Assembly (NCBI GenBank): GCA_030627725.1
Contig: DAOVSZ010000002.1
Span: 1 to 32,066, forward strand
Direction: 5' to 3'
From: Desulfobulbaceae bacterium
GTDB lineage: Bacteria > Desulfobacterota > Desulfobulbia > Desulfobulbales > DAOVSZ01
DNA: 32,066 nt
Part shown: positions 4,189 through 23,164 of the stretch, one piece after another
How the letters are laid out: each line of letters begins with the position of its first letter
How positions within the stretch are numbered: the first letter of the stretch is position 1
Translations under genes and position numbers: made by a program
Notes under the pieces: generated by a model
Database searches by the model: none
Told to the model about the DNA's origin: nothing
Seen by the model: the letters and a program-made list of their open reading frames with translations, nothing else

Positions 4189-4968
4189 ATGATGGAAAAT
4201 CTCCCTTCCATAATCTCTTTTATTTTCGGGGCCGTTGTCGGCAGTTTCCTGAATGTTGTCATTTTAAGACTTCCGGAAGAAGAAAAATCAATCGTCTTCC
4301 CCCCCTCCCACTGCCCATACTGCAAAAAAAATATCAACTGGTATGACAATATTCCACTCATCAGTTTTCTGCTTCTGCGGGGCGCTTGCCGAAGCTGCAG
4401 AAAACCGATTTCCTGGCAATATCCTCTGGTCGAACTTTCTATGGCCCTGCTGTCTCTCTTTTTGTATAAAAATTTTTCATTCTCCGTTCCATTCGGAATC
4501 TATTTTGTCTTTTCTGCCGCTCTCCTTGCGATAATCTTCATTGATTTCAGACATCAGATCATACCGGACCTCATCAGCCTGCCAGGGATTATTGCAGGAT
4601 TTGCCTTTTCTTTTATCAACCCTTTTGTGTCTTGGCAGGATTCCGGATTAGGGATTCTGCTCGGAGGAGGCAGCCTCTACGCCGTGGCAATAGGGTATTA
4701 CCTGATAGCCAGAAGGGACGGCATGGGCGGCGGTGACATAAAACTCCTCGGAATGATCGGCGGCTTCCTGGGCTGGCAATCTCTGCCATTTGTCATCTTC
4801 AGCAGTTCGCTGACCGGCGCTGTTGCGGGCATCGGGGCAATGATCAAGCAGGGGAAAGGTGGAAAAACAGTCATTCCGTTCGGACCGTTTCTTGCGCTCG
4901 GGAGTTTGCTCTATCTCTTTTTTCAGCCTGAAATCATCTCTTACACCAAAATGTTGCTGTTTCCCTGA
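4189..4968 (+). CDS. pilD: Prepilin peptidase / N-methyltransferase (A24 family)
   Basis: 259 aa. The N-terminal Cys-rich segment CPYC..(17)..CRSC sits within '..NIPLISFLLLRGACRSC..'. The protein has multiple TM segments and the A24-typical GMGGGDIKLLGMIGGFLGW block. Confidence 0.9.
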   Translation: MMENLPSIISFIFGAVVGSFLNVVILRLPEEEKSIVFPPSHCPYCKKNINWYDNIPLISFLLLRGACRSCRKPISWQYPLVELSMALLSLFLYKNFSFSVPFGIYFVFSAALLAIIFIDFRHQIIPDLISLPGIIAGFAFSFINPFVSWQDSGLGILLGGGSLYAVAIGYYLIARRDGMGGGDIKLLGMIGGFLGWQSLPFVIFSSSLTGAVAGIGAMIKQGKGGKTVIPFGPFLALGSLLYLFFQPEIISYTKMLLFP

Positions 4969-17803: not shown

Positions 17804-19762
17804 TTACTTTTCTTGTTGCGTTTCATCCTTACATGCAGCAGGCAGATGAATCTTCACCTTCATTCCCACCTCTTTTTTCTCCAGTTCAAAATGCCCGCCA
17901 TGTGCGGTGAGAACGCGTTCCACCATTGTAAGGCCCATTCCAGTCCCATACGTTTTGGTGGTAAAAAAAGAGTCCTTTGCTTTATCGAGATGTGCATCAG
18001 CCATCCCGACGCCGGTGTCGGTTATGGTTATTTGAATCCAGTCTCCTTCAACGTGCACCAGGAGTCCAAGAGTACCGCCTGATGGCATTGCCTCAATCGC
18101 ATTCTTGAAGATGTGCAGAAACATCTGCCGCATCTGCCTGGGATCTGCAAACAAGGCTGGTTCCAGTTCATGAAAATCCTGCTCAACGACAATATTCTGG
18201 TCAGTCAGGTTCTTCTGAACAAGCATCAGGGTCTTTCTTATCAGGTTGTAGAGTGATACCTGCTCCTTCCTGAGCTGAGACTGGGTAACAAAATCAAAAA
18301 GATCCTCAAGCGTTGATTCCAACCGGGCTGTCTCCTTGATCATGACCGTGAGATATTTTTCCCACTCCTTGTCCTTGACCTTCTTGGCCAGGATTCTCGC
18401 AACGCCGCCAATAGAGGTAATAGGATTACGAATGACATGAACCATCTGGGCAGACATCTGTCCCAGCGCTGAATATCGTTCGGCATCAACCAGAAGGTCC
18501 TTGTTTTTATCGAGTTCGTGATACAACTCCTCCTGCTCATGGATCTTTGCCTGCATATCCATATAGAGGTGACTATGCTCAATGGCAAGGCTCGCCTGAC
18601 TGGCAAAAAGCTCCAGCGCGCTGATGTGACTGTCGGTAATTGGATTCCTGGTAATAAAATTATCAGCAATAATCACCCCAAAGGACCTGCCAGGGGAGTA
18701 TAAGGGAACAACGACAAAATTAGCTTCGTTTAAAAGTTCGATAAGCCCATGAGGAACCTCTAACCGCAGGCCGGAGGAACCATTATTGTCTCTCCTGTCA
18801 AGATGCTCCGGAAGGGTGTCGCCGTTCTGGGCGTTCACCCAGATATTTCTTCGCTCCAGAAGAATGGGTGCGCAGCCGTTTTCTTCACTGACCCGGATAC
18901 TTCTTCGCTCAAGCGCAGATTTAATCAAAATATGATCGGTATCCGTGATTGGAACACGGATATTCTTGATCACGTTATTTACTTCGGAATCGTTCTGGCA
19001 CTCACTCTCTCTGATGTTCTTGACAAGGTCCAGGAAGTTAAAACCCTTTTCCTCCAATTCATGCCATATCCTGCTCGCAGCCTCCCTGCAGGTCGATCCG
19101 ATCGCCATACGGCCTTCCAGGACCTGATTTTTCTCATCGAACATGACGAGAAAGGCCCTGTTGAACCGCAAGCCCTCGTTTGCAGTGATACCTACCAGGA
19201 TAGCCCGAAGAATTTCATCCAGCTCCACCGTACTGAGATAGACTGAATTCATATTCAGGGAAAGCTGATGCATCAATTGGATTCGAAAATGGGCCTTTTC
19301 CAGGTCTTCCTGATACTTCCGATTTTCGAAGATAAGGCGCCGTTTCTCAAGGGTCTTTTTAACCACAAAGAGGATTTCATGAAATTTGGACGGTTTTGAG
19401 AGATAATCATCGGCGCCTTTACGGATACAGTCCAGTGCTGTCTGAAGGTCCGCAACACCGGTAAGCATGACAATAGCCATGTCAGGATACTCTTTCACCA
19501 GTTCCGGGATAAGAGTAACACCATCGGTGTCCGGCAGGCCGATATCCAGAAGGACCAAGGCGACTTTGCGCGAGGAAAGCACCTGTTTCAAATCAGTGGC
19601 ATTTGAAGTATCCTCAACAGCCAGGCCCTGATCGCTGAGATACATCTTCAAAGGTTCCCGAATAGCAGGATCATCATCAACAATGACGACAATCTCGCCA
19701 TTGGTAAGGAGCAGATCAGGACTCAGGGAAGCATGATAATAGCCTGCAACGTTTTTTATCAT
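17804..19762 (-). CDS. Hybrid sensor: REC - GAF-like - HisKA - HATPase_c histidine kinase
   Basis: 652 aa. The N-terminal receiver has VVIVDDD and LVLLDIGLPDTDG. The central domain is GAF-like (ILVGITANEGLRFNRAFLVMFD ... VVVPLYSPGRSFGVIIADN). The H-box is QMVHVIRNPITSIGG. The ATP-binding G-boxes are DTGVGM and GTGMGLTMV. Confidence 0.85.
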   Translation of the reverse strand: MIKNVAGYYHASLSPDLLLTNGEIVVIVDDDPAIREPLKMYLSDQGLAVEDTSNATDLKQVLSSRKVALVLLDIGLPDTDGVTLIPELVKEYPDMAIVMLTGVADLQTALDCIRKGADDYLSKPSKFHEILFVVKKTLEKRRLIFENRKYQEDLEKAHFRIQLMHQLSLNMNSVYLSTVELDEILRAILVGITANEGLRFNRAFLVMFDEKNQVLEGRMAIGSTCREAASRIWHELEEKGFNFLDLVKNIRESECQNDSEVNNVIKNIRVPITDTDHILIKSALERRSIRVSEENGCAPILLERRNIWVNAQNGDTLPEHLDRRDNNGSSGLRLEVPHGLIELLNEANFVVVPLYSPGRSFGVIIADNFITRNPITDSHISALELFASQASLAIEHSHLYMDMQAKIHEQEELYHELDKNKDLLVDAERYSALGQMSAQMVHVIRNPITSIGGVARILAKKVKDKEWEKYLTVMIKETARLESTLEDLFDFVTQSQLRKEQVSLYNLIRKTLMLVQKNLTDQNIVVEQDFHELEPALFADPRQMRQMFLHIFKNAIEAMPSGGTLGLLVHVEGDWIQITITDTGVGMADAHLDKAKDSFFTTKTYGTGMGLTMVERVLTAHGGHFELEKKEVGMKVKIHLPAACKDETQQEK

Positions 19763-19870
19763 CTCACTCTATGCTTAATTTCTCAATTTTCACTACTGCA
19801 TTCTCGTACGTATACCTATTATGCTACAAGATCGCAAAACTTCAAAAGAATTTTATTGAAATCGACAAAG

Positions 19871-19893
19871 AAAAAAAAGGCCCCAAAGGGACC
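19871..19893 (-). terminator. Intrinsic terminator ending the YedE-TusA-DsrE operon
   Basis: On the minus strand, GGUCCC-UUU-GGGGCC (19893-19879, with one G:U pair) is followed by U8 (complement of the A-run at 19871-19878). The same position is a C:A mismatch on the plus strand, so the element is oriented for the minus strand. Confidence 0.65.
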
Positions 19894-19933
19894 TTTTTAC
19901 TTCTCTAAATATCTATGATGTAACGAGCCGGGA

Positions 19934-20107
19934 TTACCACCAGCAGATGGTCTGGTCGGCATCATATATCTTGTCGACAAGTGCGTCATAATCAGGGCTG
20001 TCGCCACTTAAGTCAACACTGTCTGAATCCCGGTCCCTGGTAACGATCTCAACCAATTTCTTTGTTGTATCATCTGGTGCGGAACGATATACATTCAAAA
20101 TTTTCAT
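19934..20107 (-). CDS. Small conserved-hypothetical protein, last gene of the sulfur-relay operon ('CHP2')
   Basis: 57 aa from the ATG at 20107: MKILNVYRSAPDDTTKKLVEIV...DADQTICWW. GAGGAG lies 9 nt upstream. The ORF-track start at 20116 is a TTG that abuts the SD. The protein is acidic and ends in C-W-W. Confidence 0.6.
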   Translation of the reverse strand: MKILNVYRSAPDDTTKKLVEIVTRDRDSDSVDLSGDSPDYDALVDKIYDADQTICWW

Positions 20108-20127
20108 AGCATTCAACTCCTCGTGCT

Positions 20128-20433
20128 CTATTTGATCCCGTAAGGAATGATGTTTGTCATCTCACGCAGTTTTTCGCCGAGTTCCTCGATGGTTATGCTC
20201 TCAACGCCGTTCTTTTCACAATTCACCGTTTCGGTGGAGTAGATCTCTCCCTCCATGTCGCGGAGCATCTCAAGAGCTTCCTGCTGATCTTCATTCAGCG
20301 TATCCATTTCATGACCCAGGACCGCTCCGTAGGCATACATATTTTCTACGGCCAGACCGAGGGCGGAACGCATTCCATCAATGGTGTAATCCTTATGCCT
20401 GTACATAAAGCAGACTTTCTTGTATTCTGACAT
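20128..20433 (-). CDS. DsrE/F/H-fold-like small protein ('CHP1') of the sulfur-relay operon
   Basis: 101 aa. The N-terminal KKVCFMYRHKDYTIDGMRSALGLAVENMYAYGAVL resembles the beta-alpha start of DsrE/DsrF/DsrH-family proteins. It begins 10 nt after the DsrE-like gene, and GGGGGTGA precedes the ATG. Confidence 0.55.
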   Translation of the reverse strand: MSEYKKVCFMYRHKDYTIDGMRSALGLAVENMYAYGAVLGHEMDTLNEDQQEALEMLRDMEGEIYSTETVNCEKNGVESITIEELGEKLREMTNIIPYGIK

Positions 20434-20443
20434 TCTTCACCCC

Positions 20444-20758
20444 CTATAAATTAATGTAACACTCGTAATCTTCAAGAATAGCGCCATGCTGGGCCTGTGT
20501 ACCCATTTCTTTTTCGGTCAGGCCGGCCGGCACGTCGGTAACTTCATAGCCCATCTTTTTGTAACTGTCAGCGCAGATCGAGACATCGTCGGCAAGCTCA
20601 CAGAGAGCAGGGAACTCATCTAATTTCGCACACTTGGTGCCGGACCATGTAAAAAAGACCTTTACTTTTGAGCCCTTTGCCTTGGCTGCCTTGGTGATAC
20701 CCATCACGTGACGCCAGTTGTCAGGGTTTGTGACAAAAATTCCTAAACTCTTAGCCAT
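20444..20758 (-). CDS. DsrE-like sulfur-relay protein
   Basis: 104 aa from the ATG at 20758 (MAKSLGIFVTNPDNWRHV..). GGAGGA lies 4-5 nt upstream. The ORF-track N-terminal extension overlaps the SD. The DsrE-type pattern includes a candidate active Cys in VSICADSY. Confidence 0.7.
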   Translation of the reverse strand: MAKSLGIFVTNPDNWRHVMGITKAAKAKGSKVKVFFTWSGTKCAKLDEFPALCELADDVSICADSYKKMGYEVTDVPAGLTEKEMGTQAQHGAILEDYECYINL

Positions 20759-20838
20759 GTTGTCCTCCATATCAGAGTAATATGCCGCTTCAGAAGATAT
20801 CCTCTGAGGCGGCATACCATTTTTAAGTCTTTGCAGAA

Positions 20839-21075
20839 TTAGCCTTTTTTGATGAAGAATCTAAAGAAACCCTCTTCGTCCTTTGCGCCAAGGAACTCAT
20901 GTCCGGATCGCTCACACCAACCGGGCAGATCATTCTTTGAACCGGGATCGGTTCCCATGACCTCCAGAATCTGGCCGGAACTGATCTTGTTAATGGCCTT
21001 TTTTGTCCGCAGCAGGGGCATCGGGCAGCTCAACCCTTTGGCATCCAATACTTCATCAGCTTTAATGTCATCCAT
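20839..21075 (-). CDS. tusA: TusA/SirA-family sulfur carrier protein
   Basis: 78 aa with the diagnostic LDAKGLSCPMPLLRTKKA (CPxP active-site Cys). AAGGAGG precedes the ATG. Confidence 0.9.
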   Translation of the reverse strand: MDDIKADEVLDAKGLSCPMPLLRTKKAINKISSGQILEVMGTDPGSKNDLPGWCERSGHEFLGAKDEEGFFRFFIKKG

Positions 21076-21149
21076 AATAATCCTCCTTGTTCAGGTATTA
21101 AGTGGTTTGTCAGTTACGAAAACGTAATTATATTTTTGCTAATGATAAA

Positions 21150-22412
21150 TTACATCTCCAGCGTAAATTTATTTGTGTCCTCATTCCAGTCTACAAGCAC
21201 GTACCAGACTCCCATGACAAGAAATATCAAAGCCAGGGTGCCGCCATAGCCCAGAAAGGTGTTGGGCAGATAGAGAAAGGAACCAAGTTTTCCGGCATTG
21301 GTGATCTCCTCTTCCACAAAGGCTTCCATACCTTCCAGCTCGTTCAGTTTGACTATCAGGCTGCCAAGCGCACAGGTAATGCCGAAGAAAGGTGTTACGA
21401 TCCACAGCTTGATCTGGCCCTCGCCAACACGCCAGAGGGTGCCGGTTCCACATCCGCCTGCCTGAATGGCGCCGAACGCAAAGAGAATTCCGCCGACAAC
21501 GCCGCCCCAGCCAAAGGTGCCGCGTACATATTGCATCCAGTACCAATCAAAATCATCCATGGCGGAGAATCTGTACTTTATAATAGCGATGCCGGCAGCC
21601 AGAATAACAACACTCAGAGCCACGGATTTGGCAAGCTCGCAGTCACCGGTCATGTGGGGCTCCCTGAAGCCCTGGATCATGCACCAGCGGGCACGCTGAA
21701 ATACATATCCAAGCGCCGCTGCAATGGCCAGTATCCCGGACAACTTATGAAGGCCGTCATCTTCGCTGCCGGCATAGCAGTAAACACCGTAGACCAGAGC
21801 GATCAGTGCGCATATCCCTAAGACTGTCTTCAGAGCGCCCGGCAATTCAATGGTCTTGCCGCCGGTAGTGCCCCATTCTATATGTTCCATCTCCCAAAAG
21901 ACATATTTCAGGCCCAGGATTGCGCCGATAACAAGTCCGAGCATCATTGCAAAACCGTGGGCTGAAAGGTTGCCGATGGCATTATAGAAACCGCCGACAT
22001 TACAGCCGCCGGCCAAGGTCGCGCCAACGCCCATGAAGATACCGGCAAACATCGCCTTGATCATCTCCAGCTTAGGCGGGATATTAAACGCAAAATCCCC
22101 TCCAAGGCAGGCGGAAAGAAAGGCGCCTCCGACAAACGCGATACCGATGACCGAACCGGTATGAGTCAGAAAAGCGCCAGGCTGGTCGGACAACTCACTG
22201 AAACCCAGGGTGTCCCAGAGGCCGACGCCGTAAATAATCCATTCGCCCCAGTTCCTGACGGCGCCTACCGCGCCCCAGGGACGGGCCCAGGCCAGCATAA
22301 GAATACTCAGCAAAGCGATGAGGATTCCTGCTGTATTCGCACTCCAGTTGTCCTTACACAACACTTTGTAAAGCCCACTGATCTTACTGCCCATTACATT
22401 CTCATCACTCAT
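21150..22412 (-). CDS. yedE: YeeE/YedE-family membrane protein (thiosulfate/sulfur-compound transporter-like)
   Basis: 420-aa polytopic protein with Gly-rich helices and family-typical Cys loops: SACLGGDF, LAGGCNVGGFY and QAGGCGTGTLW. GAGGAGGGGG precedes the ATG. Confidence 0.85.
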   Translation of the reverse strand: MSDENVMGSKISGLYKVLCKDNWSANTAGILIALLSILMLAWARPWGAVGAVRNWGEWIIYGVGLWDTLGFSELSDQPGAFLTHTGSVIGIAFVGGAFLSACLGGDFAFNIPPKLEMIKAMFAGIFMGVGATLAGGCNVGGFYNAIGNLSAHGFAMMLGLVIGAILGLKYVFWEMEHIEWGTTGGKTIELPGALKTVLGICALIALVYGVYCYAGSEDDGLHKLSGILAIAAALGYVFQRARWCMIQGFREPHMTGDCELAKSVALSVVILAAGIAIIKYRFSAMDDFDWYWMQYVRGTFGWGGVVGGILFAFGAIQAGGCGTGTLWRVGEGQIKLWIVTPFFGITCALGSLIVKLNELEGMEAFVEEEITNAGKLGSFLYLPNTFLGYGGTLALIFLVMGVWYVLVDWNEDTNKFTLEM

Positions 22413-22528: not shown

Positions 22529-22570
22529 TGAATCATTTGAATCATTATTTTAAAAATGAATCAGCATTCA
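22529..22570. promoter_or_regulatory. Candidate operator: three TGAATCA heptamers between the promoter and yedE
   Basis: TGAATCATT TGAATCATT (22529-22546) is a tandem 9-mer. A third TGAATCA at 22557-22563 is embedded in the palindrome TGAAT-CAGC-ATTCA (22557-22570). Each heptamer is itself TGA-A-TCA. The site lies just downstream of the predicted -10. Confidence 0.4.
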
Positions 22571-22578
22571 GAAATTTT

Positions 22579-22607
22579 TTATTACTCATAACACGGGGTT
22601 TTGTCAA
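22579..22607 (-). promoter_or_regulatory. Sigma-70-type promoter candidate for the yedE operon
   Basis: On the minus strand, a perfect TTGACA (22607-22602), a 17-nt spacer, then TAATAA (22584-22579). It sits in an AT-rich 390-bp intergenic region. Confidence 0.5.
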
Positions 22608-22831: not shown

Positions 22832-23164
22832 TCACGCCTTAATCTTCTCTTCAAAAAGCAGTGTATCAATAAATTGAAGAAGGAAATCCCTCTGGGCAAT
22901 TGTGGCATAGCTGATACACGAACAGTGCAGGTTACTCTGACTTCGCACCAGCAATTCAAAGATCAGACAATTTTCACTCAATTCAACCGGGAAATAAAAA
23001 GGACCGCATGCATCATGTCCCTGCTGGGCATCTGCCAGAAGATCCGGCGGGAGCTGCAGCCAGAACATACCGTCAATCGCGCCGGGCAAAAGCGTTCTTT
23101 TCAAGTAACTGTCGATATTTGCCCTTTCCTCCCGGGTCAGCTCATCAATTCGAAATTGTCTCAT
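22832..23164 (-). CDS. Hypothetical protein (110 aa)
   Basis: I prefer the ATG at 23164 (MRQFRIDELTREERANIDSYL..), which has AGGAG 8 nt upstream. The ORF opens at 23239. The composition is protein-like, unlike the overlapping plus-strand ORF. I recognise no family. Confidence 0.55.
   Translation of the reverse strand: MRQFRIDELTREERANIDSYLKRTLLPGAIDGMFWLQLPPDLLADAQQGHDACGPFYFPVELSENCLIFELLVRSQSNLHCSCISYATIAQRDFLLQFIDTLLFEEKIKA

What the first reader, a model, noticed from the sequence alone, without database searches (positions are those of the whole stretch)
19934..22412. Compact five-gene YedE / TusA / DsrE-like / two-small-protein sulfur-relay operon ('YTD'-type)
Seen in the sequence:
- A 420-aa YeeE/YedE-type membrane protein with three GGC/CLGG Cys loops.
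- A 78-aa TusA with the CPMP active site.
- A 104-aa DsrE-like protein.
- A 101-aa DsrE/F/H-like protein.
- A 57-aa acidic protein ending in CWW.

All five are on one strand and each has a strong SD. The gaps are 74, 80, 10 and 20 nt. The unit is bracketed by its own TTGACA-N17-TAATAA promoter and a U8 terminator.

Established knowledge: YeeE/YedE together with TusA mediates thiosulfate/sulfane-sulfur import and persulfide transfer. As far as I recall, this exact five-gene arrangement has been proposed in the sulfur-disproportionation literature as a genomic marker (the 'YTD cluster'). Its biochemistry, and the roles of the two small proteins, have not been established.

Inference: this is a cytoplasmic persulfide relay that feeds or drains the dissimilatory sulfur pathway. 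It is the best candidate in this window for a poorly understood system.
Basis: partly seen in the sequence, partly recalled or inferred. Interest (0 to 1): 0.7.

Follow-up and report, generated by a model that had tools for sequence, protein, structure and literature searches.

The report
YeeE–TusA–DsrEFH type II sulfur-relay operon
This is a real five-gene operon for moving sulfur atoms from a membrane channel through carrier proteins towards the dissimilatory sulfite reductase system, but it is the 'YTD' cluster, and a 2026 paper already identified its three small proteins as a sulfur transferase called DsrEFH type II, so it is essentially known.

Summary
On the minus strand lie five genes of 420, 78, 104, 101 and 57 aa, with gaps of 74, 80, 10 and 20 nt. 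Upstream is a TTGACA-N17-TAATAA promoter; downstream is a U8 terminator.

Plum-Jensen et al. (ISME J 2026, PMC13293266) showed that the DsrE-like protein and the two "hypothetical" proteins of the YTD cluster form DsrEFH type II. In vitro this complex passes sulfur from TusA to DsrE-Cys67 and on to DsrC. They found it in 985 genomes.

The window's proteins are 70-77% identical to those of catalogued members. They keep the active cysteine (C62, SICADS). The 57-aa protein matches the 6.8-kDa DsrH type II.

No dsr, apr or sat genes lie in the window, so the link to DsrAB/DsrC in this organism is inferred.

Minor points that appear new:
- yedE is co-directional here, but divergent in about 63 of 69 relatives.
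- The yedE gene and the dsrEFH genes have different histories (a mosaic).
- A TGAAT-N4-ATTCA palindrome sits at the promoter in 30 of 73 related loci.
- A terminator-like hairpin separates tusA from dsrE in most loci.

Verdict: already known, low interest.

The parts
22579..22607 (-). Sigma-70-type promoter: -35 TTGACA (22607-22602), 17-nt spacer, -10 TAATAA (22584-22579). It lies about 165 nt upstream of the yedE ATG.
   Evidence: Read directly. The same TTGACA-N17-TAATAR/TAAGAA element is aligned in L076 and L011 while the flanks diverge. It falls below the threshold of the automatic scan.
22557..22570 (.). Perfect 14-bp palindrome TGAAT-N4-ATTCA, immediately downstream of the -10 box. It is a putative operator for an unidentified dimeric regulator. 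Further TGATTCA half-sites lie at 22538-22544 and 22529-22535.
   Evidence: The window has 2 perfect copies against 0.12 expected. With at most 1 mismatch it is present in the regulatory region of 30 of 73 related loci, at 1.00 per kb against 0.036 per kb elsewhere. Function is inferred.
21150..22412 (-). YeeE/YedE-family membrane protein, 420 aa, a putative sulfur-compound channel.
   Evidence: Pfam Sulf_transp 1.4e-37. It matches Spirochaeta thermophila YeeE (6LEO) at 3e-12, with the two halves in swapped order. C244, C321 and C137 align with the cysteines of the matching YeeE motifs (RGRIC, AGGCASG, AGGCNIG) and are invariant in 69 of 69 relatives. It fails the NCBIfam cut-offs for TsuA and for selenium YedE.
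20839..21075 (-). TusA sulfur carrier, 78 aa, with active-site Cys17 in SCPMP.
   Evidence: Pfam TusA 9.5e-27. Cysteine positions.
20781..20816 (-). 18-bp GC-rich hairpin in the tusA-dsrE spacer, 19 nt before the dsrE ATG. It is a putative partial terminator or a transcript-stabilising element.
   Evidence: dG -25.8 kcal/mol, spacer MFE z = -5.5. A hairpin of dG <= -10 is present in 66 of 78 related spacers, and 45 of these are followed by a T-run. The sequence itself is not conserved. In the window the tail has only 4 T in 9 nt.
20444..20758 (-). DsrE type II, 104 aa, the catalytic subunit with active Cys62 (SIC62ADSY).
   Evidence: C62 is invariant in 35 of 35 sequences. The motif equals the A-I-C-A-D-S around Cys67 of Electronema aureum DsrE, deduced from the mutagenesis primer. 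hhalign places C62 on Cys78 of A. vinosum DsrE, but weakly (P = 0.015). Pfam DsrE scores 19.4 bits.
20128..20433 (-). DsrF type II ('chp1'), 101 aa.
   Evidence: 918 homologues of 100-101 aa. It is 77% identical to the Desulforhopalus singaporensis protein and 70% to that of Desulfoprunum benzoelyticum; both genomes are catalogued as YeeE-TusA-DsrEFH type II. The AlphaFold model has pLDDT 88.5 and a Rossmann-like beta-alpha fold. The best PDB match is the DsrE-family protein 3pnx (E = 4e-3, TM 0.64).
19934..20107 (-). DsrH type II ('chp2'), 57 aa, acidic, ending in CWW.
   Evidence: 759 homologues of 57 aa. There are 199 clusters at 50% identity, nearly all 54-61 aa. Its mass of 6553 Da compares with 6814 Da for E. 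aureum DsrH type II. The profile aligns weakly with both ends of DsrH/TusB (P = 0.0014). The structure model has low confidence (pLDDT 64) and no fold match.
19866..19898 (-). Intrinsic terminator: an 11-bp stem followed by T8.
   Evidence: Terminator scan. Sequence.

Best explanation

Proposed mechanism:
1. The YedE-like membrane protein brings a reduced or sulfane sulfur compound across the cytoplasmic membrane. Its three invariant cysteines (C137, C244, C321) line the presumed path. The substrate is unknown; polysulfide or thiosulfate are candidates.
2. TusA takes the sulfur as a persulfide on Cys17.
3. TusA hands it to Cys62 of DsrE within a DsrE-DsrF-DsrH complex.
4. That complex loads DsrC, the substrate-carrying protein of dissimilatory sulfite reductase DsrAB. 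[quoted passage not shown]

What is shown elsewhere: steps TusA to DsrE to DsrC, the 1:1:1 complex, and dependence on the DsrE cysteine were shown in vitro for the Electronema aureum proteins.

What is shown here: gene content and order, conserved cysteines, and 70-77% identity to catalogued members.

What is inferred:
- The substrate of YedE.
- The presence of DsrC/DsrAB in this organism.
- The direction of flux in vivo.
- Transcription from one promoter, under an operator-bound regulator, with partial termination after tusA.
For: - Gene anatomy.
- Pfam Sulf_transp, TusA and marginal DsrE.
- PMC13293266 identifies the dsrE-like gene plus the two conserved hypothetical proteins of the YTD cluster as DsrEFH type II, with in vitro sulfur transfer and a Cys67Ser control.
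- The window's SIC62ADS equals the mutated motif.
- The DsrH-II mass of 6.8 kDa matches the 57-aa protein.
- chp1 is 77% identical to that of D. singaporensis and 70% to that of D. benzoelyticum. The Desulfopila aestuarii locus shows 70, 75 and 72% identity for the three proteins. All three species are listed as YeeE-TusA-DsrEFH type II in the paper's Table S5.
- tusA-dsrE-chp1-chp2 is colinear in 77-79 of 80 related Desulfobulbales loci.
- The YedE cysteines align with those of the matching motifs in crystallised YeeE and are invariant.
- The chp1 model is DsrE-family-like.
- The chp2 profile aligns with the termini of DsrH/TusB.
Against: - No dsrAB, dsrC, apr, sat or qmo gene lies in the 32-kb window, so the acceptor is not shown for this organism.
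- Independent support here for calling chp1 DsrF and chp2 DsrH is weak. No Foldseek hit reaches E <= 1e-3, and 2HY5 is not among the top 50. The chp2 model has low confidence and no match. Profile searches against PDB sequences find nothing. Pfam DsrH is hit by only 1 of 122 family members.
- The window's DsrE scores below Pfam's cut-off.
- In E. aureum, thiosulfate did not persulfidate TusA, DsrEFH II or DsrC. The YedE substrate is therefore open.
- In vivo oxidative function of reductive-type DsrAB is still unproven, by the authors' own statement.
Confidence: 0.82

Rival explanations
1. It is a dedicated marker and machine for sulfur disproportionation, which was the original YTD proposal. 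On this view it processes thiosulfate, tetrathionate or elemental sulfur specifically in disproportionators, rather than acting as a general module for sulfur oxidation or DsrC loading.
For: All five YTD proteins were more abundant under thiosulfate disproportionation in D. dissulfuricans. TusA of the cluster was up under the same condition in Dissulfuribacter thermophilus. The nearest relatives include Desulfocapsa, Desulfofustis and Desulfurivibrio lineages, which contain disproportionators.
Against: Only 25 of 63 cultured disproportionators carry dsrEFH type II. Many plain sulfate reducers do carry it, and there is no correlation with the sulfur species disproportionated. In D. thermophilus the cluster's YedE changed in the opposite direction to TusA. 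This reading also overlaps with the best explanation, since the oxidative branch of disproportionation would use the same relay.
Confidence: 0.25
2. It is an assimilatory or housekeeping sulfur relay. Either it takes up thiosulfate for cysteine synthesis, like YeeE/YeeD (TsuAB), or it supplies sulfur for tRNA 2-thiouridine, like TusA-TusBCD-TusE-MnmA.
For: The membrane protein matches crystallised YeeE(TsuA) at 3e-12, with conserved cysteines. TusA, DsrE, DsrF and DsrH are the same protein families as TusA, TusD, TusC and TusB. The chp2 profile aligns with TusB as well as with DsrH.
Against: NCBIfam TsuA scores are 73 and 64 bits against cut-offs of 400 and 645. TsuB/YeeD scores 17.6 against 147.5. 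No mnmA or tusE lies nearby, and MnmG is 11 kb away among unrelated genes. The family co-occurs with reductive dsrAB in 73.9% of genomes and transfers sulfur to DsrC in vitro. Thiosulfate did not load the E. aureum proteins.
Confidence: 0.06
3. It is a selenium-metabolism YedE/YedF pair with accessory proteins.
For: The best NCBIfam hit of the membrane protein is selen_YedE_FdhT, colinear over residues 21-412. TusA also hits YedF models.
Against: The scores are far below the curated cut-offs: 89 against 350, and 44.9 against 79. No selD, selA or selB, and no formate dehydrogenase gene, lies in the window. The conserved partners are DsrEFH type II proteins.
Confidence: 0.02

Closest known systems
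[quoted passage not shown] 2020)
   Same: - Same five genes.
- Same order tusA-dsrE-dsrF-dsrH.
- Same protein sizes, including the roughly 57-aa DsrH.
- Same active-site motif [S/A]IC[A/V]DS.
- 70-77% identity to catalogued Desulfocapsaceae members.
- Same taxonomic home, the Desulfobulbales.
   Different: - Here yedE is co-directional and only 74 nt upstream of tusA. In most close relatives it is divergently transcribed.
- The window's YedE belongs to a separate clade from those divergent copies, while its DsrEFH is closest to a divergent-type locus.
- Nothing biochemical has been tested for this organism.
Canonical DsrEFH (type I) of Allochromatium vinosum (PDB 2HY5) and E. coli TusBCD (PDB 2D1P)
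   Same: - Three small alpha/beta subunits encoded in the order E-F-H.
- One catalytic cysteine in DsrE, receiving sulfur from TusA and passing it to DsrC/TusE.
- The window's C62 aligns with DsrE Cys78.
- chp2 shares the N-terminal (M.iLH...SP) and C-terminal (DY..FV......V..W) signatures of DsrH/TusB.
   Different: - Sequence similarity is at the limit of detection (hhalign P = 0.015 and 0.0014; no phmmer or hmmsearch hit).
- The subunits are shorter: 104, 101 and 57 aa here, against 130 aa for DsrE and 102 aa for DsrH in 2HY5 (DsrF length not checked here).
- DsrH type II lacks the middle of the DsrH fold.
- By my reading of the DsrH sequence, its Cys20 has no counterpart in chp2.
- Type II is associated with reductive-type rather than oxidative-type dsrAB.
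YeeE(TsuA)/YeeD(TsuB) thiosulfate uptake system (Spirochaeta thermophila, PDB 6LEO, 8J4C)
   Same: - A Sulf_transp membrane protein with three conserved cysteines.
- It is encoded next to a TusA-like protein.
   Different: - The membrane protein is 420 aa against 339 aa for the 6LEO chain.
- The two homologous halves match in swapped order.
- The NCBIfam TsuA and TsuB cut-offs are not met.
- The partner is a true TusA (93 bits) rather than YeeD.
- It is followed by dsrEFH type II.

Membership tests
YeeE-TusA-DsrEFH type II (YTD) cluster | A yedE/yeeE-related gene encoding a Sulf_transp membrane protein, adjacent to the cluster | tested here: met
   Pfam PF04143 at 1.4e-37. It lies 74 nt upstream of tusA.
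YeeE-TusA-DsrEFH type II (YTD) cluster | TusA with the conserved CPxP cysteine | tested here: met
   PF01206 at 9.5e-27. Cys17 sits in SCPMP.
YeeE-TusA-DsrEFH type II (YTD) cluster | DsrE type II with the conserved active cysteine (Cys67 of E. aureum; conserved in 99.3% of 985 sequences) | tested here: met
   C62 is invariant in 35 of 35 homologues, in SIC(A/V)DSY. The E. aureum C67S primer encodes A-I-(C>S)-A-D-S. hhalign puts C62 on DsrE type I Cys78.
YeeE-TusA-DsrEFH type II (YTD) cluster | Two small genes, dsrF-II and dsrH-II, directly after dsrE, in synteny | tested here: met
   Genes of 101 and 57 aa follow with gaps of 10 and 20 nt. The same order is found in 78-79 of 80 related loci. 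The sizes fit the E. aureum DsrF and DsrH masses of 12.7 and 6.8 kDa.
YeeE-TusA-DsrEFH type II (YTD) cluster | Sequence homology to members catalogued in the defining paper | tested here: met
   chp1 is 77% identical to D. singaporensis and 70% to D. benzoelyticum. The D. aestuarii locus shows 70, 75 and 72%. All three species are in Table S5 of PMC13293266. A direct comparison with the E. aureum sequences was not possible, because they were not retrieved.
YeeE-TusA-DsrEFH type II (YTD) cluster | A DsrE:DsrF:DsrH complex (1:1:1) that accepts sulfur from TusA and donates it to DsrC | not testable with these tools
   This is a biochemical property, shown only for E. aureum proteins.
YeeE-TusA-DsrEFH type II (YTD) cluster | Co-occurrence with a (mostly reductive-type) dsrAB/dsrC pathway in the genome | not testable with these tools
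   Only 32 kb of this genome is available and it has no dsr, apr, sat or qmo genes. The further contigs of the same population are shorter.
YeeE-TusA-DsrEFH type II (YTD) cluster | Predicted folds of the F and H subunits resemble DsrF and DsrH of 2HY5 | tested here: inconclusive
Canonical DsrEFH type I / TusBCD (Pfam DsrE PF02635, DsrH PF04077) | Scores above Pfam gathering thresholds for the DsrE/DsrF and DsrH families | tested here: not met
   DsrE-like scores 19.4 bits against a cut-off of 22.7. chp1 and chp2 have no hit. DsrH is hit by 1 of 122 chp2 relatives, at E = 0.013.
TsuA/TsuB (YeeE/YeeD) thiosulfate uptake | NCBIfam equivalog cut-offs for TsuA and TsuB | tested here: not met
   TsuA scores 72.9 and 63.5 bits against 400 and 645. 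TsuB scores 17.6 against 147.5.
YedE/YedF selenium metabolism | NCBIfam cut-offs for selen_YedE_FdhT and YedF | tested here: not met
   89.3 bits against 350, and 44.9 against 79.

The most novel reading that the evidence does not exclude
This locus may be a mosaic, single-transcript variant of the cluster. A distinct YedE clade, arriving with its own sigma-70 promoter, was joined co-directionally to a tusA-dsrEFH type II module of different ancestry. The promoter carries a TGAAT-N4-ATTCA operator for a still unidentified regulator, possibly one that senses sulfur. That regulator would control the cluster across many Desulfobulbales, in both gene arrangements. A conserved terminator-like hairpin after tusA would set the TusA:DsrEFH expression ratio. 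None of these regulatory features was found in the papers read here.
Probability: 0.45. Interest if true: 0.35.

Novelty: already known. Interest (0 to 1): 0.2.

Why it matters
The cluster matters for the sulfur cycle. DsrEFH type II is proposed to let organisms with a "sulfate-reducer" gene set run dissimilatory sulfite reductase in reverse, oxidising sulfide or sulfur. It may also take part in the oxidative branch of disproportionation.

That case has already been made and tested in vitro (PMC13293266). This window adds only another uncultured Desulfobulbales example.

The open questions are:
- What the YedE-like protein transports.
- Which regulator controls the cluster.
- Whether DsrAB really works oxidatively in vivo.

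The operator motif, the tusA-dsrE hairpin and the two yedE arrangements seen here give small, testable handles on regulation. They do not change the picture.

Tried and rejected
- **Paralogy among the three small proteins.** Profile-profile comparison among the three families (A1, A2, A3) found nothing. The alignments were too shallow, with Neff 1.5-1.7.
- **Sequence searches against the PDB.** Single-sequence and profile searches for the three small proteins found no DsrEFH or TusBCD chain.
- **Foldseek on the chp2 model.** It gave only generic beta-alpha-beta fragments, from a low-confidence model.
- **Pfam scan of 122 diverse chp2 relatives.** DsrH was hit once, at E = 0.013, which is noise level.
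- **Rfam.** No family reached the gathering threshold in the window. In E-value mode over the locus, the only match was a sub-threshold hit on the terminator.
- **Riboswitch or structured leader.** The 164-nt yedE leader is not more structured than shuffled sequence (z = -0.43), so I rejected this idea.
- **Brute-force hairpin scan.** It timed out and was replaced by a lighter analysis.
- **Retrieving the Electronema aureum locus.** I could not get it for a direct comparison.
- **The conserved 110-aa neighbour (22832-23164).** It matched no Pfam or NCBIfam model, so it cannot be proposed as the regulator.
- **Rival families.** The selenium YedE/YedF and TsuA/TsuB readings were considered and rejected on curated score cut-offs.
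Full report
**1. Observation**

The five ORFs are real and lie on the minus strand:
- yedE-like, 21150-22412, 420 aa.
- tusA, 20839-21075, 78 aa.
- dsrE-like, 20444-20758, 104 aa.
- chp1, 20128-20433, 101 aa.
- chp2, 19934-20107, 57 aa.

For the dsrE-like protein, 505 homologues are 104-105 aa. For chp1, 918 are 100-101 aa. For chp2, 759 are 57 aa.

The gaps of 74, 80, 10 and 20 nt are correct, and each start has a Shine-Dalgarno sequence. The promoter is TTGACA (22607-22602), N17, TAATAA (22584-22579). The terminator is at 19898-19874 and is followed by T8.

HMM support is strong for Sulf_transp (1.4e-37) and TusA (9.5e-27). It is marginal for DsrE: 19.4 bits against a cut-off of 22.7, with 21 of 35 homologues matching at E <= 0.01. 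It is absent for chp1 and chp2.

**2. What it is**

A full-text search for "YTD gene cluster" found Plum-Jensen et al., ISME J 2026 (PMC13293266). That paper reports the following:
- The three Electronema aureum proteins co-purify 1:1:1.
- Persulfidated TusA loads DsrE but not DsrF or DsrH.
- A Cys67Ser variant abolishes this loading.
- DsrEFH type II passes sulfur on to DsrC, but not the reverse.
- The genes occur in 985 genomes, mostly Desulfobacterota and Nitrospirota. They are in synteny with tusA and yeeE/yedE, and 73.9% of these genomes carry reductive-type dsrAB.

A later proteomics paper already uses this nomenclature (PMC13490349).

**3. Membership tests made here**

(a) *Active cysteine.* C62 of the window's DsrE is invariant in the motif SIC(A/V)DSY. 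The paper's mutagenesis primer encodes A-I-(C>S)-A-D-S around Cys67. hhalign against A. vinosum DsrE and E. coli TusD is weak (P = 0.015), but it places C62 on Cys78.

(b) *Sizes.* E. aureum DsrH type II is 6814 Da and DsrF is 12725 Da. The window's chp2 is 6553 Da and chp1 is 11627 Da.

(c) *Homology to catalogued members.* chp1 is 77% identical to the Desulforhopalus singaporensis protein and 70% to that of Desulfoprunum benzoelyticum. The Desulfopila aestuarii locus gives 70, 75 and 72% for the three proteins. All three species are listed as "YeeE-TusA-DsrEFH type II" in Table S5 of the paper.

(d) *Synteny.* A scan of GTDB species genomes found 225 relatives. The best 80 are all Desulfobulbales (Desulfocapsaceae, Desulfurivibrionaceae, Desulfobulbaceae), and the best is 83% identical. 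The window's genome is therefore not itself a GTDB species representative. tusA-dsrE-chp1-chp2 is colinear in 77-79 of the 80 loci.

(e) *Folds.*
- chp1 models confidently (pLDDT 88.5) as a Rossmann-like beta-alpha protein. Its best PDB matches are DsrE/DsrF-family proteins: 3pnx (E = 4e-3, TM 0.64), 2pd2 and 2qs7. None reaches E <= 1e-3, and 2HY5 is not in the top 50.
- chp2 models poorly (pLDDT 64) and has no fold match.
- A deep profile of the chp2 family was built from the 199 clusters at 50% identity, nearly all 54-61 aa. It aligns with both termini of DsrH/TusB. MKiLhIlrSePD matches MSILHTVNKSPF, and vDYd.LVd.IF..DkVI.WW matches VDYAGFVDLTTECDTVQAWL. The P-value is 0.0014.
- This fits a DsrH that has lost its middle part, but it is not conclusive.
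- Cys55 of chp2 is not conserved in the wider family, so it is unlikely to be catalytic.

**4. The membrane protein**

It matches crystallised Spirochaeta thermophila YeeE (6LEO) at 3e-12, with the two internal halves in swapped order. Query residues 230-346 match YeeE 8-116, and query residues 87-163 match YeeE 244-319. By contrast it is colinear with the YedE/FdhT model.

The YeeE cysteines in the aligned motifs RGRIC, AGGCASG and AGGCNIG correspond to C244, C321 and C137. Each of the three is invariant in 69 of 69 relatives. C19 is present in 68 of 69.

Curated cut-offs for TsuA, TsuB, selenium YedE and YedF are all missed by wide margins. The substrate is unknown. In E. aureum, thiosulfate did not persulfidate TusA, DsrEFH II or DsrC.

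**5. Context**

The rest of the window encodes:
- a 4Fe-4S protein and two PilZ proteins;
- prepilin peptidase;
- a sigma-54 response regulator and a PAS-GGDEF protein;
- MnmG, TrkH/TrkA and UppP;
- a thioredoxin-like protein and an MFS transporter;
- a FliK-like protein;
- a REC-GAF-HisKA-HATPase hybrid kinase, directly downstream of the terminator;
- a 110-aa hypothetical protein, a DnaJ-domain protein and PlsY;
- an AAA-OmpA protein, a T2SSE ATPase, MltA and acetyl-CoA synthetase.

There is no dsr, apr, sat or qmo gene. The link to the dissimilatory pathway is therefore inferred from the family, not seen here. The same five-gene locus recurs on six shorter metagenome contigs.

**6. Points beyond the published description (all minor)**

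(i) *Orientation of yedE.* yedE is divergently transcribed from tusA in 63 of 69 relatives. It is co-directional only in the window and in L011, L024, L025, L034 and L076.
- The six co-directional YedE proteins form one clade. Mean identity is 76% within the clade, against 59% to the divergent copies.
- On concatenated DsrE+F+H, however, the window is sister to the divergent-type locus L002 (80.5%). It is only 62-69% identical to the other co-directional loci.
- The yedE gene and the dsrEFH genes therefore have different histories.

(ii) *Promoter and palindrome.* The promoter is conserved in the window, L076 and L011. It is followed at about +2 to +16 by a palindrome, TGAAT-N4-ATTCA.
- With at most 1 mismatch, this motif occurs in the regulatory region of 30 of 73 loci of both arrangements. 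Its density is 1.00 per kb there, against 0.036 per kb elsewhere.
- The window has two perfect copies against 0.12 expected. The second copy lies inside the kinase gene (19244-19257).
- Three other co-directional loci instead have a sigma-54-type TGG-N10-GC element.
- No regulator gene could be assigned.

(iii) *The tusA-dsrE spacer.* It carries a strong hairpin (dG <= -10 kcal/mol) in 66 of 78 loci. In 45 of these a T-run follows. The median z-score is -3.0, and the sequence is not conserved.
- In the window the hairpin is at 20781-20816 and has dG -25.8, but its U-tail is weak.
- This suggests partial termination or transcript stabilisation after tusA.
- It fits the opposite abundance changes of TusA and YedE seen in D. 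thermophilus. It also fits the report that in E. aureum only tusA-dsrEFH form one transcript.

(iv) *The leader.* The 164-nt leader is not significantly structured, and no Rfam family matches.

**7. Verdict**

The finding is accurate as an observation, and its mechanistic guess is correct. The system, however, has been identified, named and biochemically characterised. This is another member from an uncultured Desulfobulbales bacterium. Novelty: already known. Interest is low, at about 0.2.

The residual open questions are the YedE substrate, the regulator, and the in vivo direction of flux. They concern the whole family and are not specific to this window.

Noticed in passing
window 22557-22570 (also 22529-22544); L002, L005, L007-L010, L014, L028, L029, L035, L037, L041-L043, L052, L059, L061-L063, L065, L067-L069, L071, L073, L076, L079 and others: A 14-bp palindrome, TGAAT-N4-ATTCA, sits just downstream of the -10 box of the yedE promoter. 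It recurs in the yedE/tusA regulatory region of 30 of 73 related loci, about 28-fold enriched over the rest of the loci. It is probably the operator of an unidentified regulator.
   Followed up: partly
window 19244-19257: A second perfect copy of the TGAAT-N4-ATTCA palindrome lies inside the coding region of the hybrid histidine kinase downstream of the operon. The window has 2 perfect copies against 0.12 expected by chance.
   Followed up: no
window 20781-20816; tusA-dsrE spacers of L001-L080: A strong hairpin, not conserved in sequence, separates tusA from dsrE in 66 of 78 loci. In 45 of these it is followed by a T-run, so it looks like an internal partial terminator or an RNA-stabilising element. 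In the window the T-run is on the opposite strand.
   Followed up: partly
window 21150-22412 compared with L001-L080: yedE is divergently transcribed from tusA in 63 of 69 relatives and co-directional in only 6, including the window. The co-directional YedE proteins form their own clade. The window's DsrEFH, however, is sister to that of a divergent-type locus (L002). This points to a mosaic origin.
   Followed up: yes
L024 about 4255-4270, L025 about 4260-4275, L034 about 4270-4285 (upstream of yedE): Three co-directional loci lack the sigma-70 promoter and palindrome. Instead they have a sigma-54-type -24/-12 element (TGGAAC-N5-TTGCT), preceded by TTGCA...TGCAA repeats. The same cluster is therefore wired to different regulators in different lineages.
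   Followed up: no
window 22832-23164 (-): A conserved 110-aa cysteine-containing hypothetical protein lies next to the cluster in the window and in 26 of 80 related loci. It matches no Pfam or NCBIfam family (the listed ORF is 135 aa from a TTG; the likely start is MRQF).
   Followed up: partly
window 17804-19762 (-): A REC-GAF-HisKA-HATPase hybrid kinase of AtoS/ZraS type lies directly after the operon's terminator. Orthologues of 53-63% identity flank yedE, or chp2 where the genes are co-directional (L076), in about 30 related loci. Whether this reflects function or only shared ancestry is open.
   Followed up: partly
window 21150-22412 (-): Relative to crystallised YeeE (6LEO), the two homologous halves of this YedE-like protein match in swapped order, while the protein is colinear with the YedE/FdhT model. 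An extra N-terminal cysteine (C19) is conserved in 68 of 69 relatives.
   Followed up: partly
window 21076-21149 (-): The 74-nt yedE-tusA spacer contains a perfect TATAAT and a small palindrome, TTACG-TTTT-CGTAA. An internal promoter for tusA-dsrEFH cannot be excluded.
   Followed up: no
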